From a virus, in IMG/VR virus record IMGVR_UViG_3300047557_002442, positions 1-64,000 of that record: a DNA stretch of 64,000 nucleotides. One strand, given 5' to 3'. The notes under the pieces were generated by a model. That model was not told where the DNA came from. It ran no database searches and saw only the letters and a program-made list of their open reading frames with translations. How positions within the stretch are numbered: position 1 is the stretch's first letter; every line of letters begins with the position of its first letter. Shown here one piece after another: positions 2,566-35,835 of the stretch. The position numbers and the translations under genes are program-made.

Positions 2566-5500
2566 TTAATATCCTATTTTTACGTCAGGTGTTGTTACAA
2601 AGTTTGCAGGAACAACTGTGTTTGATTGTGCTACGATTGCTGTACCATTTCTTACTGTGAGATGAAATACATCTCCAGGTTGTACTCCAAATATTTCACT
2701 TTGTATTGTTGTAGTAAATACTCCTGCTGTAGTAGTAGTGTTCGAATTATATGATCTTGGAGCTGAGGTGAATGAATTAGCTGTTATTGTAGCTTTTTGG
2801 GATGCAGCACTATCAATCTTCTTTGTTCCCCTGAACACATCTACTGTATATGTAAGTACTGTTTTGTTTGGGACATTTACAGTATTTATATCTACGGTAT
2901 AAAGTCTAGTTGTTACAACTTTAGGAACAATACCAAGTATTGTTCCTGTGCCTACCCCCTGCGTACTAGTTTCCTGTGATAATGAAATTCGTCCAGCATA
3001 TGTTGGCATAGTTATAGCTGAAGGAGAAATCATCATTTCAGCCACTGCCGTATTAGGCGTCAATGCACCTGGTACCGCTGATCCAATATTTACAACAATA
3101 TTTTTTGCTGATGATAGACTTGAATTGACGGTAAATGTTTGACTCGATCCAGTACCATCTGAAGCTGTTGTATTACCGGTTACAGTAAATGTATCAATAA
3201 CACCAGTTAAACTAGCACCATTCAAATCATCGCTTGTTACACCAGTAATATTGTAGTTGAATTGAGCTCCACTAAATGATTTATATGTATTAATAGTTAT
3301 TGCAAAAGTGTTACCTGCACCCACGAACGTTGGTACATCAACTTTCCATGTTCCAAGACTTGCGTTTTGTGCAAAAATTACACGTTTTGAATCAGTCCAT
3401 CTTTGACCAGATGCTAGTGCATAACCTGCAGGAAGCATTATACGCATTCTATAGTTTTCTAAATTGTTGTAGTTGTCTCCAACAAATACAATTGTTTTTG
3501 TAGCTACTCCACCTGTAAACGTCAGTGTACCTTCCCTATCAGCATTGGAAACGTTCTTAGCATCCCCCATATTACTTCCTGTCTTACCAATCCCAGTCGA
3601 CTGAACTTCAGCAGATGGAGTGTATCCAGTAGATGTACCTGCCACAGCATCTTTACCATTCAACATAACATAATTAGCCGTTCCGGTGTATCCCGGTATC
3701 AATATTGTAAACGTCACAGTTCGCTGATCAGCAGCTAGTTTCAAGTTGATTAACGTCTTATCCATTTCGATAGTTGGATCTGGTGCTGCTGATGGATTAA
3801 TTGTTACTGTTCTGCTTCTGTTGAACCCATCACCAACTGCAAAGGTAAACTGTTCTGCTGCAAAATCATCAACATTCTTAGCTAATGTTACTGAGACATT
3901 AGCGACAGCCAATGTCGTATTCCCTACAAGTGAAACTCTTCCGCTTCTTGGAGTAGTAAAATCAGATGCTGTAATATTAGTACCACTAATATCGTATTGA
4001 TATGATGCGTTACCAATTCCAGTTGTTTGAAGTGTAAATATTACAGTATTGCCTTCATCTACAAAATCTCGATCAGAGCTAAGTGAGAAGGAATTAACAA
4101 TTGTGTTACCAGTTATAACTACGGCACGTGACAGCGTTCTCGTGTTTGATGCATCTCTAACCGTTAACAACATTGTTTCGTTGTTTTCTGGTGACCCATC
4201 ATTATTAGCCGTAACAACCAAATTGGCGCTGTTAGACACGATAGTTAGGTTTCCTGTCAATGGTGTTGGATCAATATCTCCTGATGAAATCCCAGTAATA
4301 GTGTATGAGAATACATTACCATTCCATCCATTTGCTTCAAGTGTGAACTTAACTGATTGTCCCTCAGCAATTGAGTCAGTATTAGCAGTTAATAATAATT
4401 TTGTTGGCGTTTGATCGATGATAGCAACAGACTGTGTTAAGTTAGCTACATCTTGAGATGTTAAATCAACTTCAAATCTCATTGTTGGACTACCAGCCGT
4501 AACCATCGTACTATTTGTTGTGACGACAAGGTTGGCTGAATTATTGGCATATGTTAACGTTCCACGTAACGGTACATCAATGTCCCCGGATGAGTTTACA
4601 CCAGTAATAACATATGGGAACGTAGTGTTTGCAACATTTGACAATGATGAAAGAGTAAACCTAACAGACTGACCTTCATTAATAATATTTGTGTTTGCCA
4701 CAAGACTGAAGATTGGTTTTGGTAAATCAGTCACGAATATTGTTTTAGTGAGATTCAATGGGTGATGGACTGTAAGACTTAACGTTTCAACCCCATTGGA
4801 TCCCTCTGAAACGAAATCAACATTTGGTGTTACACTCAATGTAGCAAAACCAGTACTGTTAATTGTCAGATTACCTGTTAATGGCACATTCAAATCACTC
4901 GCTGTTATACCAACCCCGCTCAATGTATATGGTATAACTACGCCGGTATTCACATTATCTGTATCAAGTGTGAATAAGGCAGTTTGACCTTCAAGCACAT
5001 TTTCTGTATTACATGTCAGAACCCCTCTCGGATTCAATCCATCATCCAGAATACGTAAGGAAATTGAGTTTACTCCCCCAACATTAACAGAGAATGATAG
5101 TGTTTCTGTACCTTCTGGCGAAGCATCTGAATTAGCTGCAATTGATAGTGTTGCCACAGTTCTTTCTGTATTACCGATAAGCGTCATCGTTCCAGTACTT
5201 GAAACGTTTATGTCACCAGATGATATACCAGTGATAGTATATCCTACTACGGTACCATTTGCAACATTAATTGCTTGCAAAGTGATGTTGGCTGACTGTC
5301 CTTCTACAATTTCAATTTTGTCTGATGAGAGAACATACGCTGGGGATGTGTTTGTTAGAATATTAGCCCATACGTCGCTATTAGCTGATGTTGCATAATC
5401 ATACGTATCAGTTATCTTCAATTCGCCCTTGAACGTTACCTTAAAGGATGATGGTCGAGTAATCATTTCACCAATAAACTTAACATCTCCACCAACACCA

Positions 5501-32108: not shown

Positions 32109-32231
32109 TTAGCCCCATAGACCTTTAACTTTACCTACTACAGCATCTACGACGCCTTTAACCTTACCAACACCTGGTACATACCAAGCTACTACTACAC
32201 CTACTGCTACCCAAAAAAGAACTGATAACAT
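32109..32231 (-). CDS. 40-aa single-TM protein directly upstream of endolysin
   Basis: Not in the ORF track. MLSVLFWVAVGVVVAWYVPGVGKVKGVVDAVVGKVKGLWG* with an AAGGAG RBS. Confidence 0.7.
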   Translation of the reverse strand: MLSVLFWVAVGVVVAWYVPGVGKVKGVVDAVVGKVKGLWG

Positions 32232-32256
32232 GGTTGTCTCCTTAAAAAGAAAATTA

Positions 32257-32578
32257 GCGGGTTATTCTGTTACGAGGAAACCCACCGAAACCCTAAGCGG
32301 CAATTAAGCTGCTAATGCGTATTCGCTATCATTTGCGTTTACTTTATTTATGCGATTTGCGGTCGTCATCTACCGGACGCTCTTATTCTATCTACCCCAA
32401 TCGAAACCTAGTCAGGCCCATCAGAGATACACTGCTGTTACCAACACTTCTCACTGTGTGCTTTCGGGCTGCAGTCCCTAGATAACCCCGTGGTGTTAAT
32501 GGTGCAATGCATCTTTGGTGGACCTGGGCGGAATCGAACCGCCGTCTTGAAGTCCTTACCTTAGAGTTTACGTCGTTA
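32257..32578 (-). ncRNA. ssrA: Circularly permuted (two-piece) tmRNA
   Basis: Acceptor piece ends GGCGGTTCGATTCCGCC-CAGGTCC-A-CCA (32516). After a 96-nt intervening hairpin, the coding piece starts GGGCCTG (32419) and pairs with a G3-U70 wobble. Tag ORF 32336-32304 encodes ANDSEYALAA*. Outer ends are approximate. Confidence 0.93.
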
Positions 32579-32627
32579 TTTTATATACCAAGGTCTATAT
32601 CCAATATAATCCTTGGTTTTAAATATC

Positions 32628-32873
32628 TTAGTCAGTATTCTTTTCAACATATGGACGACGTCCTAAATTGTGTAGTTGAATTGTTTTTTGTTTTTGTTCA
32701 AGAACTAACTCTTCTTTACTAACCACATCGCCCTCAATTGACTCAGCCTTTGGTGCTGGTGCTTGGGCATATGGTCGTCTTGATAGTTGCTGCTGATTGA
32801 TATGGTTTCTATCGTTATCTTCTGCATACACATTCAAAGCAAACAATATAGCAACTAAACTAACTGCTTTCAT
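32628..32873 (-). CDS. Small exported protein with duplicated L(S/G)RRPY motif
   Basis: Signal peptide MKAVSLVAILFALNVYA; QQQLSRRPY and LHNLGRRPY; AGGAG RBS. Confidence 0.75.
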   Translation of the reverse strand: MKAVSLVAILFALNVYAEDNDRNHINQQQLSRRPYAQAPAPKAESIEGDVVSKEELVLEQKQKTIQLHNLGRRPYVEKNTD

Positions 32874-32985: not shown

Positions 32986-33561
32986 TTAGATCTTACCAAT
33001 CAAATCTAAACTTGGTGTTAGTGTTTCAGCACCATCTGCCCATTTAGCTGGACATGCCTCATTGGGATGTTCTCTTGTATAGATTGCTGCCTTGATCTTA
33101 CGAACAAGCTCGGCTGCATTACGACCAACACCATCTGCTGTTTGTTCGCTAATAACAACCTTACCATCCGGATCGACAACAAATGTTGAACGGTGTGCTA
33201 ATCCAGTTTCACAATTCAACACATTGAATATTTGTGAAAGAATATGTGCTGGATCGCCAATCAGTGGATATTTGACTTTCTTAATTGTATCTGATGCGTC
33301 TGCCCATGCCTTATGGACAAAATGAGTATCAGTAGATACTCCATATACATTGACTCCTAATGTCTTCAATTCATCATAATGATCCTGTAGATCACCTAAC
33401 TCTGTCGGACAAACAAAAGTAAAATCAGCTGGATAGAAAAAGAATACATTCCAGCCAGTAGTTAAATCTTCGGATGATAGTTTATTAAACTTACCATCAC
33501 AGTATACATCAACATAATAATTAACAACATACTCATTTGCAGCTTGGCCTACATTTATCAT
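32986..33561 (-). CDS. ahpC: Alkyl hydroperoxide reductase C (2-Cys peroxiredoxin)
   Basis: [14 protein letters not shown]; STDTHF.HKAW; R.TFVVDPDG; GRNA.EL.R; CPAKW; TL.PSLDL.GKI. Confidence 0.96.
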
Positions 33562-33581
33562 AACAATTCCTCATTTTATTA

Positions 33582-33725
33582 TTAAACACAATCAGCAATG
33601 GCAGCTAACCACCTTGCTTGACATTCTTTATCATTCACATCACACACGACTGGATCTTGTGGTTGGTATATTTCTTTATTGGTTTCTTTTGGGAGCTCTT
33701 TTTGTAGCTCTTCTGGCGTAGCCAT
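33582..33725 (-). CDS. 47-aa Cys-containing peptide upstream of ahpC
   Basis: Not in the ORF track. MATPEELQKELPKETNKEIYQPQDPVVCDVNDKECQARWLAAIADCV* with an AAGGAGAGG RBS. Confidence 0.7.
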   Translation of the reverse strand: MATPEELQKELPKETNKEIYQPQDPVVCDVNDKECQARWLAAIADCV

Positions 33726-33756
33726 GTTACCTCTCCTTTTGGGATCATTAACTGGA

Positions 33757-33783
33757 AAAAAAGGGCTATACAGCCCTTTTTTT
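33757..33783 (-). terminator. Intrinsic terminator after pqqA
   Basis: AAAAAAAGGGCT-GTAT-AGCCC-TTTTTTT. Confidence 0.8.
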
Positions 33784-33805
33784 GTAGTGCCGTATAGTAT
33801 GAATA

Positions 33806-33877
33806 TTATTTATTCATTACGTACATTGTTACTTCGAAGCCGAAGCGCATTTCTTGTGCAGTTGGTTTTGTCCACAT
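33806..33877 (-). CDS. pqqA: Pyrroloquinoline quinone precursor peptide PqqA (23 aa)
   Basis: Not in the ORF track. MWTKPTAQEMRFGFEVTMYVMNK* has the W..P..R.GFEVTMY signature with the E-x-x-x-Y pair. AAGGAG RBS and its own terminator. Confidence 0.95.
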   Translation of the reverse strand: MWTKPTAQEMRFGFEVTMYVMNK

Positions 33878-33949
33878 AATATTTCTCCTTAATTAAGTTT
33901 AAACACATTTGAGGCAATTGCCTACCTGTCTATTTAACCATATTTGAGG

Positions 33950-33987: not shown

Positions 33988-34000
33988 AAATTCATTAACT

Positions 34001-34969
34001 TTATGCTGCCTCTGCAAACTCAATAGCAGTCTCTAACGCCTTGAGTTTTAAGTTCTTATTTGGACCAAACCATGCAGATGTAAGACGTGTATCTGCATCA
34101 CGACCAATAACATGATCTGTCATATAGGTCACAGTGTTGAATGCTTGCCACCAAGATCCTTCAGCATACTCTGCACCAGGTTGTTGCATCACTAATTCTA
34201 AGGCGCGTGATGCTGACTTAGATAGATCCTTACGCTGTGGACCTTTCTCTTTGTTGTATGCAATTACTGGGAATACACGATTGAAGTACTCTTTCAATGT
34301 TTCTTCTTTGTACTTACGAGAGCCCAAGAACTGTGCCATTTCTTTATACTTAGCTAGCTTGTCAGATGCAATACCTAACATAGTCTTAACATTATCACCA
34401 TCAAACTCACGACGGTGATTGACCTTCACTACACTACTAGCACTCTGATTCAAAGCTAATGTTAATGTATTATTACACACAACACGTATTGGTGTAAAAC
34501 GTACGTCAATAGACTGACCAAACTTGTGTGGGTTAGTGAATAGCAAGTAACTATCTACCTGATCGCCACCAAACACATCAAAAGACTCCTTAACTTTTGC
34601 TAATGCAAATACGATCTGACCACCCTTAAGCGAACCAGCTGTATGCATCTCCATATCACCAGCTAGTACAAAATCATTAAAGAATTCAAAGGCTTCCTGG
34701 TTCTGTACAGGGTTCCAATCAGCTGAGACAATATCTAAGATCTTGTTGTCTGTAGAACGAACAAGTGGCGATACATTAAGTGGTGTCTTCATACCACCAA
34801 TAATAGAATATGCTTCTACTTTTTGTACAGTCCAATCTAAGCCAGCAAGTTGCAGCATCTGTTCAGGACTAACATCTGCGGGTACTTCCGTACCAAGTCC
34901 GTGCCACGGTTTCTCACCAACATAAGCCATCTGTGCTACACCATTAATCATTTCAATTTCATGTGCCAT
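34001..34969 (-). CDS. DUF932 family phage/plasmid protein
   Basis: MAYVGEKPWHGLG; AGLDW.V; PVQN.EAF.FF; TAGSL.GG; TPIRVVCNNTL; W.AFN.VT...DH. Confidence 0.88.
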   Translation of the reverse strand: MAHEIEMINGVAQMAYVGEKPWHGLGTEVPADVSPEQMLQLAGLDWTVQKVEAYSIIGGMKTPLNVSPLVRSTDNKILDIVSADWNPVQNQEAFEFFNDFVLAGDMEMHTAGSLKGGQIVFALAKVKESFDVFGGDQVDSYLLFTNPHKFGQSIDVRFTPIRVVCNNTLTLALNQSASSVVKVNHRREFDGDNVKTMLGIASDKLAKYKEMAQFLGSRKYKEETLKEYFNRVFPVIAYNKEKGPQRKDLSKSASRALELVMQQPGAEYAEGSWWQAFNTVTYMTDHVIGRDADTRLTSAWFGPNKNLKLKALETAIEFAEAA

Positions 34970-35093: not shown

Positions 35094-35651
35094 TTAGAAT
35101 CTAACATTGTATCCAAAGTTATATGACCAAAAATCATCGTCTCCTGTTGCTCGGTCAACACCGGCTACAAGCGATGAATTTTTTGTGATCGCATAGTCTG
35201 CAGCTGCACGCCATGTACGTGTTGAGTCGTTGTCATCTTTATGAAATGCGTTACGGAAACGTAGTCCCCCTCTAACATTCAGCTTATCAGTAACAGCATA
35301 CTGCAACCCAGGCTCAGTACTCCAGTATTGGAAATTGTCAGTACCGTTCATTTTGGTACCATATGCACTACGATTATAAACGGTGAATCCTGCGCCAATA
35401 GGTAATCTACCAATCAATGCACCCTCTAAACGAGTATTATTACTGTCATTATCACTAGTCTTTAAACGTGTATTAATTTCAGCATCCAAATACTTGTTAA
35501 TGCTTTGACCAAGCGTTACTTGGTATACATTTGCGTCTTGATAACCTTCCAACCCGTTACGAAGTTGGAACTGGATACCACCGTAATTGCCTTCTGCAGC
35601 TGCAAAAGAACTTGCTAACATCATCGTCAGCATTAATACATACTTTTTCAT
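35094..35651 (-). CDS. Outer-membrane beta-barrel protein
   Basis: Signal peptide ending AAA-E; alternating beta-strand pattern; C-terminal YNFGYNVRF BAM signal. Confidence 0.82.
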   Translation of the reverse strand: MKKYVLMLTMMLASSFAAAEGNYGGIQFQLRNGLEGYQDANVYQVTLGQSINKYLDAEINTRLKTSDNDSNNTRLEGALIGRLPIGAGFTVYNRSAYGTKMNGTDNFQYWSTEPGLQYAVTDKLNVRGGLRFRNAFHKDDNDSTRTWRAAADYAITKNSSLVAGVDRATGDDDFWSYNFGYNVRF

Positions 35652-35676
35652 TACATCTCCCTTTTTGTTATACATG

Positions 35677-35835
35677 CTAATCATTCCAATGCCTTAAAAC
35701 GCCTGCAACAATCACCATGTTTGTTATAAGGTAACAGAGAACAATAATTGTTCTTATCAGTGCTACTCTATCAGCCTCTTTATCACAATTGCCAGACTTT
35801 TCGCCCAGTGCTTTAGCCCACAATCTCCACATCAT
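35677..35835 (-). CDS. 52-aa phage membrane protein
   Basis: Not in the ORF track. MMWRLWAKALGEKSGNCDKEADRVALIRTIIVLCYLITNMVIVAGVLRHWND*. Confidence 0.7.
   Translation of the reverse strand: MMWRLWAKALGEKSGNCDKEADRVALIRTIIVLCYLITNMVIVAGVLRHWND

What the first reader, a model, noticed from the sequence alone, without database searches (positions are those of the whole stretch)
33757..33936. Phage-encoded PqqA as a stand-alone transcription unit
Seen: a 23-aa ORF MWTKPTAQEMRFGFEVTMYVMNK, too short for the ORF track. It has a strong RBS, an upstream TAAATA late-like element (33931-33936) followed by the palindrome AGGCAATTGCCT (33912-33923), and its own terminator. No pqqB-E are in the window. 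Known: PqqA is the ribosomal precursor whose Glu and Tyr become PQQ, consumed one peptide per cofactor; PQQ serves methanol and other alcohol/glucose dehydrogenases. Inference: the phage supplies only the stoichiometric substrate to the host's existing enzymes after host shut-off. The sequence resembles Methylophilaceae PqqA as I recall it, which predicts the host. Similar cases may already be reported from metagenomes.
Basis: partly seen in the sequence, partly recalled or inferred. Interest (0 to 1): 0.82.

Follow-up and report, generated by a model that had tools for sequence, protein, structure and literature searches.

The report
Phage copy of PQQ precursor gene
A freshwater T4-like phage carries an intact 23-codon copy of pqqA, the peptide that host enzymes use up to make the methanol-dehydrogenase cofactor PQQ. 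The gene is real and under selection, but phage pqqA has been reported before and is common in phages of methanol-eating bacteria.

Summary
The 23-aa ORF at 33877..33806 (minus strand) is a genuine PqqA. It passes the Pfam and NCBIfam cut-offs, keeps the Glu-x-x-x-Tyr cross-link pair, and has a canonical Shine-Dalgarno. Strong hairpins sit on both sides of it. The record is a 101-kb, about 62% complete T4-like virus from freshwater metagenomes. No pqqB-E, PQQ dehydrogenase or integrase was found in it.

The same mini-gene is in the cultured Methylophilales phages that the GenBank phage search returned, mostly unannotated, and in at least 134 IMG/VR contigs. None of those has pqqB/C/D beside it. 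Viral copies are under strong purifying selection (pN/pS about 0.10), and all 117 keep Glu and Tyr.

Host genomes themselves carry a median of 4 dispersed pqqA copies with their own hairpins, so the stand-alone design is inherited from the host.

orf47 and ahpC follow the hairpin with no room for a promoter, so the hairpin may act as an attenuator.

Phage pqqA was reported from Lake Baikal (Coutinho 2020), and this scan has found it before on other DNA. Verdict: new member of a known kind. Function is inferred, not shown.

The parts
33806..33877 (-). pqqA, 23 codons plus stop: MWTKPTAQEMRFGFEVTMYVMNK. Glu15 and Tyr19 form the E-x-x-x-Y cross-link pair.
   Evidence: ORF. PF08042 scores 39.8 bits against a cut-off of 21.1. 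TIGR02107 scores 38.1 bits against 20.
33885..33890 (-). Shine-Dalgarno AAGGAG, 7 nt before the ATG
   Evidence: An SD-like motif is present in 120 of 120 viral copies. The last 22 nt before the ATG (AACTTAATTAAGGAGAAATATT) are identical in relative L028.
33756..33783 (-). Downstream hairpin A7-GGGCU-GUAU-AGCCC-U7, a terminator or attenuator. orf47's SD follows the hairpin after a spacer of about 20 nt.
   Evidence: dG -15.9 kcal/mol, z -3.1. One search shows the same pqqA-hairpin layout in cellular and phage relatives.
33950..33987 (-). Upstream hairpin CACCAUGCUC-N12-GAGCAUGGUG plus U6, the likely terminator of the DUF932 gene. It insulates pqqA from upstream transcription.
   Evidence: dG -17.5, z -3.0.
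33988..33997 (-). TAATGAATTT, a copy of the box YMATGRWTTT that recurs upstream of pqqA in phages and hosts. Here no -10 element lies at the usual 27-nt spacing.
   Evidence: 55 of 111 viral and 26 of 119 cellular upstream regions have the box, against 1.35 and 0.9 in shuffles; 27-nt spacing to a -10-like hexamer in 25 of 55 viral copies; the window lacks it.
33912..33936 (-). Both are present but not supported as functional.
33582..33725 (-). 47-aa ORF of unknown function with its own SD, between pqqA and ahpC
   Evidence: No Pfam or NCBIfam hit. A 50%-identical homologue lies next to ahpC in viral L028.
32986..33561 (-). ahpC (2-Cys peroxiredoxin, alkyl hydroperoxide reductase C). It is a recurrent neighbour of pqqA in phages and methylotrophs.
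   Evidence: TIGR03137 scores 275 bits against a cut-off of 272. PF00578. Adjacency data.
34001..34969 (-). DUF932 / TIGR03299 phage-plasmid-like protein, the upstream neighbour
   Evidence: 70.8% nucleotide identity to a gene of the OM43 phage Melnitz.

Best explanation
This is a functional, host-derived pqqA carried as an auxiliary metabolic gene by a lytic T4-like phage of freshwater Methylophilaceae. The phage makes only the 23-residue precursor. The host's PqqD/PqqE would bind it and cross-link Glu15 to Tyr19, and host peptidase, PqqB and PqqC would finish PQQ. One peptide is destroyed per cofactor made, so PqqA is the one pathway component that must be resupplied continuously. An extra, strongly translated copy would keep or raise PQQ supply for the host's periplasmic XoxF/Mxa-type methanol dehydrogenase, and hence energy, during infection.

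Shown: the identity of the gene, conservation of its reactive residues, purifying selection, recurrence across unrelated methylophages, and absence of pqqB-E from the phage DNA held.

Inferred: expression, processing by host enzymes, and the benefit to the phage.

The gene layout (own SD, hairpin right after the stop) copies the host's orphan pqqA copies. In this phage the hairpin probably attenuates transcription into orf47-ahpC.
For: Family membership:
- PF08042 scores 39.8 bits against a 21.1 cut-off and covers the full model.
- TIGR02107, an equivalog model, scores 38.1 bits against 20.

Viral setting:
- The record is a virus: an IMG/VR record with T4-type baseplate, tube-cap, RNR and virion proteins.
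- An independent assembly bridges the junctions around pqqA.

Recurrence:
- tblastn finds the gene at 82-91% identity in the Methylophilales phages Venkman, MEP301, MEP401/402, P19250A and four Melnitz strains, and in a spring podovirus. It is mostly unannotated or mis-annotated on the opposite strand.
- At least 134 IMG/VR contigs carry it. Both scans were capped.

Selection:
- A leader-anchored scan leaves the core unconstrained. All 117 viral copies found that way keep E-x-x-x-Y.
- Over the 13 unconstrained codons pN/pS is 0.095 with pS 0.74.
- 51 of 120 viral peptides are identical to a cellular one.

Dependence on the host:
- No pqqB, C, D or E in the record.
- 0 of 127 viral sequences have pqqB/C/D nearby, against 35 of 120 cellular loci; Fisher p = 5e-13.
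- A host-type genome does have pqqBCD.

Dosage logic in hosts:
- 61 of 61 host-family genomes carry pqqA, at 265 places, median 4. Even 1.3-Mb genomes have 3.
- In Ca. Methylopumilus the three copies lie more than 100 kb from pqqB.
- In Hyphomicrobium, orphan pqqA copies are among the most expressed and peak together with the PQQ synthesis rate (PMC9851590).

Prior report: viral PqqA next to viral methanol dehydrogenase in Lake Baikal phages (PMC7678222).
Against: No expression, peptide or PQQ data exist for this or any phage copy. The promoter in this window is not identified. The record is only about 62% complete, so a phage pqqB-E or a PQQ enzyme in the missing part cannot be excluded. It is not shown that PqqA supply limits PQQ synthesis in these hosts, or that new PQQ matters within one latent period. 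The window's leader variant (..TAQEM..) was not seen in any of 130 cellular copies, so recognition by the host PqqD is assumed from similarity.
Confidence: 0.75

Rival explanations
1. Oxidative-stress or PQQ-plus-peroxiredoxin module. pqqA and ahpC form one functional cassette taken from a methylotroph chromosome. The peroxiredoxin would remove peroxide made during PQQ maturation or methanol oxidation, or PQQ itself would serve redox protection. The benefit would come from the pair, not from pqqA alone.
For: pqqA-hairpin-ahpC is found in this window and in viral L028 and L119, whose AhpC is 74-77% identical. It is also in 4 of 5 Methylophaga-family ahpC loci and 1 of 4 Methylophilaceae ahpC loci examined. 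In the phages ahpC or orf47 starts within about 30 nt of the hairpin, with no room for a promoter. From general knowledge of the pathway: PqqC releases H2O2, and PqqE carries oxygen-sensitive Fe-S clusters.
Against: Only 3 of about 140 viral loci have ahpC beside pqqA, so most phages carry pqqA alone. The phage AhpC is at most 60% identical to any cellular AhpC searched, so a recent joint capture is not shown. Adjacency alone does not show coupling.
Confidence: 0.12
2. Neutral passenger. A small piece of host DNA picked up by recombination persists without benefit, or survives only as a promoter/terminator 'moron'.
For: The gene is tiny. It sits in variable regions of mosaic phages and is antiparallel to both neighbours in 48 of 141 loci. 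It carries host-type upstream boxes.
Against: pN/pS is 0.095 with synonymous sites near saturation. Glu and Tyr are kept in 117 of 117 copies and an SD in 120 of 120. The gene is present in myo-, podo- and siphovirus-type genomes of 35 kb to over 350 kb.
Confidence: 0.06
3. Decoy or inhibitor. The phage peptide ties up host PqqD/PqqE to shut down PQQ synthesis as part of host takeover.
For: The leader variant ..AQEM.. was seen only in phage copies: this window, Melnitz, L017 and L255.
Against: The reactive Glu and Tyr and their spacing are invariant in viral copies. 51 of 120 viral peptides are identical to host peptides. A decoy would be expected to lose the cross-link residues. Related lake phages carry methanol dehydrogenase, which needs PQQ (PMC7678222).
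Confidence: 0.03
4. attP or integration remnant. The ORF is the duplicated end of a host pqqA gene used as a prophage attachment site.
For: Small genes such as tRNA and tmRNA genes are common integration targets. Some pqqA-bearing phages have recombination modules nearby.
Against: No integrase was found in this T4-like record. The ORF is complete with its own SD. Copies differ from each other and from hosts at most synonymous sites, unlike an attP core.
Confidence: 0.02

Closest known systems
Virus-encoded PqqA of Lake Baikal methylotroph phages (population VP_266; Coutinho et al. 2020, Microbiome, PMC7678222)
   Same: A PqqA precursor gene in uncultured freshwater T4-like phages predicted to infect Methylophilaceae, read as an auxiliary metabolic gene that boosts methanol oxidation.
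   Different: The Baikal phages were reported with a viral methanol dehydrogenase, and radical-SAM genes in the sister population. Neither was found in the 101 kb held here. I could not compare the sequences directly.
Unannotated pqqA copies in cultured Methylophilales/Methylophilaceae phages (Melnitz, Venkman, MEP301, MEP401/402, P19250A)
   Same: Same 23-24 aa peptide at 82-91% identity, with the same EMRFGFEVTMY core and its own SD. Melnitz shares the ..AQEM.. leader variant and a 70.8% nt-identical DUF932 gene.
   Different: The phage backbones are unrelated. This phage's baseplate wedge is nearest Caulobacter Cr30 and Sinorhizobium phiM12 at 39%. The neighbours differ: here DUF932 upstream and orf47-ahpC downstream. 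The Melnitz paper does not mention pqqA.
Orphan, multi-copy pqqA genes of Methylophilaceae (for example Ca. Methylopumilus universalis)
   Same: Near-identical peptide (21 of 23) with the VMNK tail. Each is a stand-alone mini-gene with an SD and a hairpin directly after the stop, far from pqqBCDE. The upstream box is shared.
   Different: This copy is encoded by a virus. Its leader has Thr6-Ala7-Gln8 where cellular copies have mostly Ala-Ala-Thr. In host copies the box-to-(-10) spacing is 50-51 nt with a second half-box. In most phage copies it is 27 nt, and in this window no -10 lies at that spacing.
pqqA of classical pqqABCDE(F) operons (Klebsiella, Methylorubrum extorquens)
   Same: Same family (PF08042/TIGR02107), same Glu/Tyr chemistry, and a hairpin after pqqA. 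In those operons the hairpin gives an abundant short pqqA transcript and a rarer read-through transcript. This last point is from my own recollection of the M. extorquens work, not re-read here.
   Different: No pqqB follows here. The downstream genes are orf47 and ahpC.

Membership tests
PqqA (Pfam PF08042 / NCBIfam TIGR02107) | Profile score above the curated cut-off over the full model | tested here: met
   PF08042 scores 39.8 bits against 21.1, positions 1-19 of 19. TIGR02107 scores 38.1 bits against 20, positions 1-21 of 21.
PqqA (Pfam PF08042 / NCBIfam TIGR02107) | Conserved Glu and Tyr in an E-x-x-x-Y motif, the atoms that become PQQ | tested here: met
   E15-V-T-M-Y19 in the window. 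Kept in 117 of 117 viral copies found with a leader-only pattern.
PqqA (Pfam PF08042 / NCBIfam TIGR02107) | A very short (about 20-40 aa) ribosomally made peptide with a translatable ORF | tested here: met
   23 codons, an ATG start, and AAGGAG 7 nt upstream.
PqqA (Pfam PF08042 / NCBIfam TIGR02107) | Genomic association with pqqB-E | tested here: not met
   None in the 101-kb record. This is not disqualifying: only 35 of 120 cellular copies have pqqB/C/D nearby, and Ca. Methylopumilus has three copies more than 100 kb from pqqB.
PqqA (Pfam PF08042 / NCBIfam TIGR02107) | Bound by PqqD, cross-linked by PqqE and converted to PQQ | not testable with these tools
   This needs biochemistry or genetics. 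The peptide is too short (under 30 aa) for the complex-prediction tool.
Viral auxiliary metabolic gene | Encoded on a bona fide virus genome, not on host contamination | tested here: met
   IMG/VR record. T4-type structural genes flank it. An independent assembly bridges the junctions. No integrase found.
Viral auxiliary metabolic gene | Host homologue in a metabolic pathway, kept under purifying selection in viruses | tested here: met
   21 of 23 identical to Methylophilaceae PqqA. pN/pS is 0.095.
Viral auxiliary metabolic gene | Expressed during infection and altering host metabolism | not testable with these tools
   Not measurable with the sequence data at hand. It needs infection experiments or metatranscriptomes.
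T4-type late transcription unit | A TATAAATA late promoter about 6-7 nt upstream of the transcript start | tested here: not met
   The sequence is GTTAAATA, 6 of 8. This variant is barely enriched upstream of ORFs in this genome (5 of 40 against 2.2 expected), whereas ATAAATA is 9 of 21 against 1.1. It is not conserved in L028 or L119.

The most novel reading that the evidence does not exclude
Phage pqqA copies carry more than the ORF. They also import the host's pqqA control region: a conserved box, YMATGRWTTT, at a fixed 27-nt distance from a -10 element and with no -35. In one lineage they also import the host's pqqA-hairpin-ahpC arrangement. On this reading the phage gene is wired into an unidentified host regulator of PQQ supply, and PQQ biogenesis is functionally coupled to peroxide removal. 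The hairpin would set a high-pqqA, low-ahpC ratio, as it does between pqqA and pqqB in classical operons.
Probability: 0.2. Interest if true: 0.55.

Novelty: new member of a known kind. Interest (0 to 1): 0.4.

Why it matters
Most viral auxiliary metabolic genes encode enzymes. This one encodes a consumable substrate, a RiPP precursor that is destroyed once per cofactor made. That points to PqqA supply as the step worth boosting in methylotrophs.

Methylophilaceae (OM43, LD28, Methylotenera) link methanol from primary production to CO2 in oceans and lakes. Phage control of their key cofactor could therefore shift C1 fluxes.

Two practical points follow. The gene falls below ORF-calling thresholds and is missing or mis-annotated in the cultured methylophage genomes checked. 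Its peptide type is also a cheap host marker for viral contigs.

The idea itself is already published, from Lake Baikal in 2020, and this window adds only one more lineage.

Tried and rejected
I used degenerate DNA patterns instead.
- The first phage blastn call was one base over the size limit and was re-sent.
- No RNA holder was listed among the public runs that hold this stretch, so expression could not be examined. The runs laid were DNA contigs only.
- The simple terminator scan missed the downstream hairpin because its A/U arms extend the stem. Folding recovered it. My own hairpin counter undercounts for the same reason, so I do not use its terminator frequencies.
- A sigma-70-like match (TTTAAA-16-TATTAT) overlaps the start codon and cannot serve pqqA.
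- Host inference from the tmRNA was rejected. RF01850 matches the phage gene, but no match over the cut-off was found in the 3 Methylophilaceae and 2 Methylophaga genomes tested. The Melnitz paper also reports that phage two-piece tmRNAs do not track the host.
- Host inference from AhpC was rejected: at most 60% identity in both candidate families.
- Host inference from structural proteins was rejected: the nearest cultured phages infect Caulobacter, Sinorhizobium and cyanobacteria at 39-48% identity.
- No glutamine riboswitch or other cis-regulatory RNA family lies near pqqA.
- Complex prediction was not used because the peptide is under the 30-residue minimum.
- Single-linkage clustering of flanks to count independent acquisitions gave 3 to 31 groups depending on threshold. 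That is too mosaic for a firm number.

Full report
**1. The observation**

On the minus strand, 33877..33806 encodes MWTKPTAQEMRFGFEVTMYVMNK followed by a stop. AAGGAG lies 7 nt before the ATG. After the stop comes the hairpin A7-GGGCU-GUAU-AGCCC-U7 at 33783-33756. It folds at -15.9 kcal/mol, z = -3.1 against dinucleotide shuffles.

I also found a second, stronger hairpin with a U6 tail upstream, at 33987-33950 (-17.5 kcal/mol, z = -3.0). It sits just after the stop of the DUF932 gene, so pqqA is bracketed by terminator-like structures.

- The 12-nt palindrome is one of 21 in the window, and shuffles give 18-29. It occurs once in the genome.
- The TAAATA reads GTTAAATA, 6 of 8 against TATAAATA.
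- In this genome ATAAATA is clearly enriched upstream of ORFs (9 of 21 sites against 1.1 expected). TTAAATA is not (5 of 40 against 2.2).
- Neither element is conserved in the two closest syntenic relatives, which share only the last 22 nt before the ATG.

**2. What the ORF is**

It passes both curated PqqA models over their full length. PF08042 scores 39.8 bits against a cut-off of 21.1. The NCBIfam equivalog TIGR02107 scores 38.1 bits against 20. It has the E-x-x-x-Y pair (Glu15, Tyr19) that becomes PQQ.

**3. The genome**

The window is the first 64 kb of a 101,219-bp IMG/VR virus record that CheckV estimates at 62% complete. PHROGs identifies T4-type baseplate wedge subunits, a tube cap, a tail protein, ribonucleotide reductase and virion proteins. 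The nearest cultured phages by structural proteins are Caulobacter Cr30, the Sinorhizobium phiM12 group and cyanomyophages at 39-48% identity. This is therefore a distinct T4-like lineage, not a close relative of the OM43 myophage Melnitz.

GC content is 36-40%. The stretch occurs in freshwater, wastewater and groundwater metagenomes from several studies. In run X8, from a different study, one 1,473-nt contig spans 33065-34537 at 95.5% identity. That bridges ahpC, orf47, pqqA and DUF932, so the arrangement is not an assembly chimera. In the other runs the assemblies break inside pqqA, where the summed contig depth spikes. That is the expected behaviour for a sequence shared by many genomes in the sample.

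**4. What is not in the phage**

No PqqE, PqqC, PqqB or PqqD was found in the whole record, and tblastn with a host PqqB/C/D set agrees. There is no PQQ beta-propeller domain and no methanol/ethanol-type PQQ dehydrogenase. No tyrosine integrase was found. Because about 38% of the genome is missing, these are absences from the DNA held, not from the virus.

**5. Distribution**

tblastn against GenBank phages finds the same peptide at 82-91% identity in:
- Methylophilales phages Venkman, MEP301, MEP401 and MEP402;
- Methylophilaceae phage P19250A;
- four Melnitz strains;
- a podovirus genome from a freshwater spring.

In most of these the gene is unannotated. In Melnitz and the spring podovirus the annotated 'hypothetical protein' lies on the opposite strand.

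A degenerate DNA pattern for MRFGFEVTMY hit 120 IMG/VR contigs, where the scan stopped at its cap. A second pattern, anchored only on the leader, added 14 core variants. That makes at least 134 viral contigs, from 4 kb fragments to contigs of 72 kb and 356 kb.

The literature search found one prior report, Coutinho et al. 2020. They described PqqA in a Lake Baikal T4-like population predicted to infect Methylophilaceae, beside a viral methanol dehydrogenase. The Melnitz paper does not mention pqqA. No paper in the library links pqqA with OM43 phages. Notes from this scan show the same gene flagged on many other viral genomes, with the same reading.

**6. Is it under selection, and is it a substrate or a decoy?**

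The leader-anchored scan does not constrain the core. Of its 122 matches, 5 are chance hits inside long unrelated ORFs. All 117 PqqA-like copies keep Glu-x-x-x-Tyr, and the only core variants are F to Y, V to I and M to L.

Over the 13 unconstrained codons there are 92 distinct nucleotide sequences but only 15 peptides. pS is 0.74, pN is 0.07 and the ratio is 0.095. 51 of 120 viral copies encode a peptide identical to a cellular copy.

This argues against both a neutral passenger and a decoy that has lost its reactive residues.

**7. Host**

Among 130 cellular copies that share the core, the '...VMNK' tail of this peptide is Methylophilaceae in 60 of 68 cases. The rest are unclassified or two probable mis-bins.

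| Host family | Typical tail | Residues matching the window (of 23) |
|---|---|---|
| Methylophilaceae | VMNK | up to 21 |
| Methylophaga family | ICNR | 15-16 |
| Methylococcaceae | IYNR | 13-14 |

(All.)

Three further points agree with a freshwater Methylophilaceae host:
- the freshwater habitat;
- a DUF932 gene 70.8% nt-identical to one in the OM43 phage Melnitz;
- an M15 peptidase shared with other pqqA-bearing viral contigs.

Other markers gave no host signal. AhpC reaches at most 60% identity in both candidate families. The phage's permuted beta-type tmRNA has no counterpart over the cut-off in the Methylophilaceae and Methylophaga genomes tested.

I rate the family-level host call as likely but resting mainly on one 23-residue peptide.

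**8. 'Stand-alone' is the host's own design**

All 61 sampled genomes of the host family carry pqqA, at 265 places in total. The median is 4, the range 1-12, and 59 of 61 genomes have two or more. In the 1.3-Mb Ca. Methylopumilus universalis genome the three copies lie at 416, 457 and 1186 kb, while pqqBCD is at 576 kb. The copy I read has its own SD and a hairpin terminator and is followed by a convergent gene.

Only 35 of 120 cellular copies have pqqB/C/D within the locus. The figure for viral sequences is 0 of 127 (Fisher p = 5e-13).

In Hyphomicrobium, which has five pqqA copies, one orphan copy is among the two most expressed and peaks with the PQQ synthesis rate (PMC9851590). Multi-copy orphan pqqA thus looks like a dosage device in methylotrophs, and a phage copy adds one more.

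**9. Transcription**

A box, YMATGRWTTT (TAATGATTTT or TCATGGTTTT), recurs upstream of pqqA. In cells it is often part of a TCATGA-N-TCATGA or TAATGA-ttt-TCATTA palindrome. It is in 55 of 111 distinct viral upstream regions and 26 of 119 cellular ones, against 1.35 and 0.9 in shuffles.

In viral copies the box lies exactly 27 nt before a -10-like hexamer in 25 of 55 cases. In cells the spacing is 50-51 nt. There a second, proximal half-box restores the same ATGA-31 nt-(-10) geometry. No -35 consensus is evident. Many phages therefore carry a host-type pqqA promoter region.

This window has the box (TAATGAATTT, 33997-33988), but the upstream hairpin occupies the place where the -10 would be. 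Its promoter stays unidentified.

Downstream, orf47's SD lies about 20 nt after the hairpin, and ahpC follows orf47 closely. In relatives L028 and L119 ahpC starts about 20-30 nt after the hairpin. With no room for a promoter, these genes probably depend on read-through. The 'terminator' is then better read as an attenuator, as between pqqA and pqqB in classical operons. That last comparison is from my recollection of the M. extorquens work.

**10. The ahpC neighbour**

pqqA-hairpin-ahpC occurs in:
- this window, with orf47 inserted;
- viral L028 and L119 (AhpC 74-77% identical);
- 4 of 5 Methylophaga-family ahpC loci examined;
- 1 of 4 Methylophilaceae ahpC loci examined.

In cells about 130 nt separate the hairpin from ahpC. 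This may reflect a functional link between PQQ biogenesis and peroxide removal, or just a captured block. Only about 3 of 140 viral loci have it, so it is not general.

**11. Mechanism and verdict**

Most likely (about 0.75), the phage supplies extra PqqA substrate to the host's PqqBCDE. This would sustain PQQ for methanol dehydrogenase during infection.

- Shown: gene identity, conserved chemistry, selection, recurrence, and lack of the pathway enzymes in the phage DNA held.
- Inferred: expression, processing, benefit, and the timing relative to host shut-off.

The finding is real but not new in kind. It is another lineage carrying an already reported viral pqqA.
- the stand-alone design is inherited from the host;
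- a conserved upstream box and a pqqA-ahpC pairing deserve a look.

Noticed in passing
window 33988-33997 (-); viral loci L009-L060; cellular loci L132-L244: A conserved box, YMATGRWTTT, lies upstream of pqqA in 55 of 111 viral and 26 of 119 cellular copies (shuffles about 1). It sits exactly 27 nt before a -10-like hexamer in 25 of 55 viral copies. In cells the spacing is 50-51 nt, with a second TCATGA half-box. No -35 is evident. This looks like a binding site for an unidentified regulator of pqqA that phages have carried along.
   Followed up: partly
window 32986-33877 (-); L028, L119, L273, L274, L282, L283, L284: The arrangement pqqA, then a hairpin, then ahpC recurs in three viral contigs, four Methylophaga-family genomes and one Methylophilaceae genome. 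In the phages ahpC (or orf47) starts within about 30 nt of the hairpin, which suggests read-through expression.
   Followed up: partly
window 32231-32627 (-): A permuted (two-piece) tmRNA gene: RF01850 scores 119.6 bits and RF04321 115.6 bits. ARAGORN did not call it. No match over the cut-off in 3 Methylophilaceae and 2 Methylophaga genomes. Melnitz-group phages also carry two-piece tmRNAs unlike their host's.
   Followed up: partly
L003 (Melnitz MZ577097.1, locus 2995-3069 +); L004 (MW202481.1, locus 2119-2190 +): In Melnitz and the Manatee Spring podovirus the pqqA ORF is covered by a 'hypothetical protein' annotated on the opposite strand. In Venkman, MEP301, MEP401/402 and P19250A the ORF lies in an unannotated gap.
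   Followed up: yes
window 33806-33916, runs X2, X4, X5: Summed contig depth over pqqA is far above the flanks (for example 3331 against about 10 in X4), and assemblies break inside the gene. Near-identical pqqA sequences from many genomes evidently co-occur in these freshwater samples, so pqqA acts as an assembly repeat.
   Followed up: no
window 33854-33865 (leader codons); L003, L017, L255: The leader variant ..(T/V)AQEM.. occurs only in phage copies: this window, Melnitz, L017, and L255 from a 356-kb contig. It is in none of 130 cellular copies. It may mark a phage-to-phage lineage of pqqA.
   Followed up: partly
window 33582-33725 (-): A 47-aa ORF with its own SD lies between pqqA and ahpC. 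It has two Cys and no family hit. A 50%-identical homologue lies beside ahpC in viral L028, but in a different order.
   Followed up: no
window 34001-34969 (-): The DUF932/TIGR03299 gene next to pqqA is 70.8% nt-identical to a gene of the OM43 phage Melnitz, although the two phages' structural genes are only distantly related. It looks like a gene exchanged among methylophages.
   Followed up: no
window 35094-35684 (-) and 32628-32873 (-): A 196-aa protein with a signal-peptide-like start is a borderline outer-membrane beta-barrel match (PF13505, 28.6 bits against a 28.7 cut-off). An 81-aa ORF also has a signal-peptide-like start. Both lie in the same block of host-like genes as pqqA and ahpC.
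   Followed up: no
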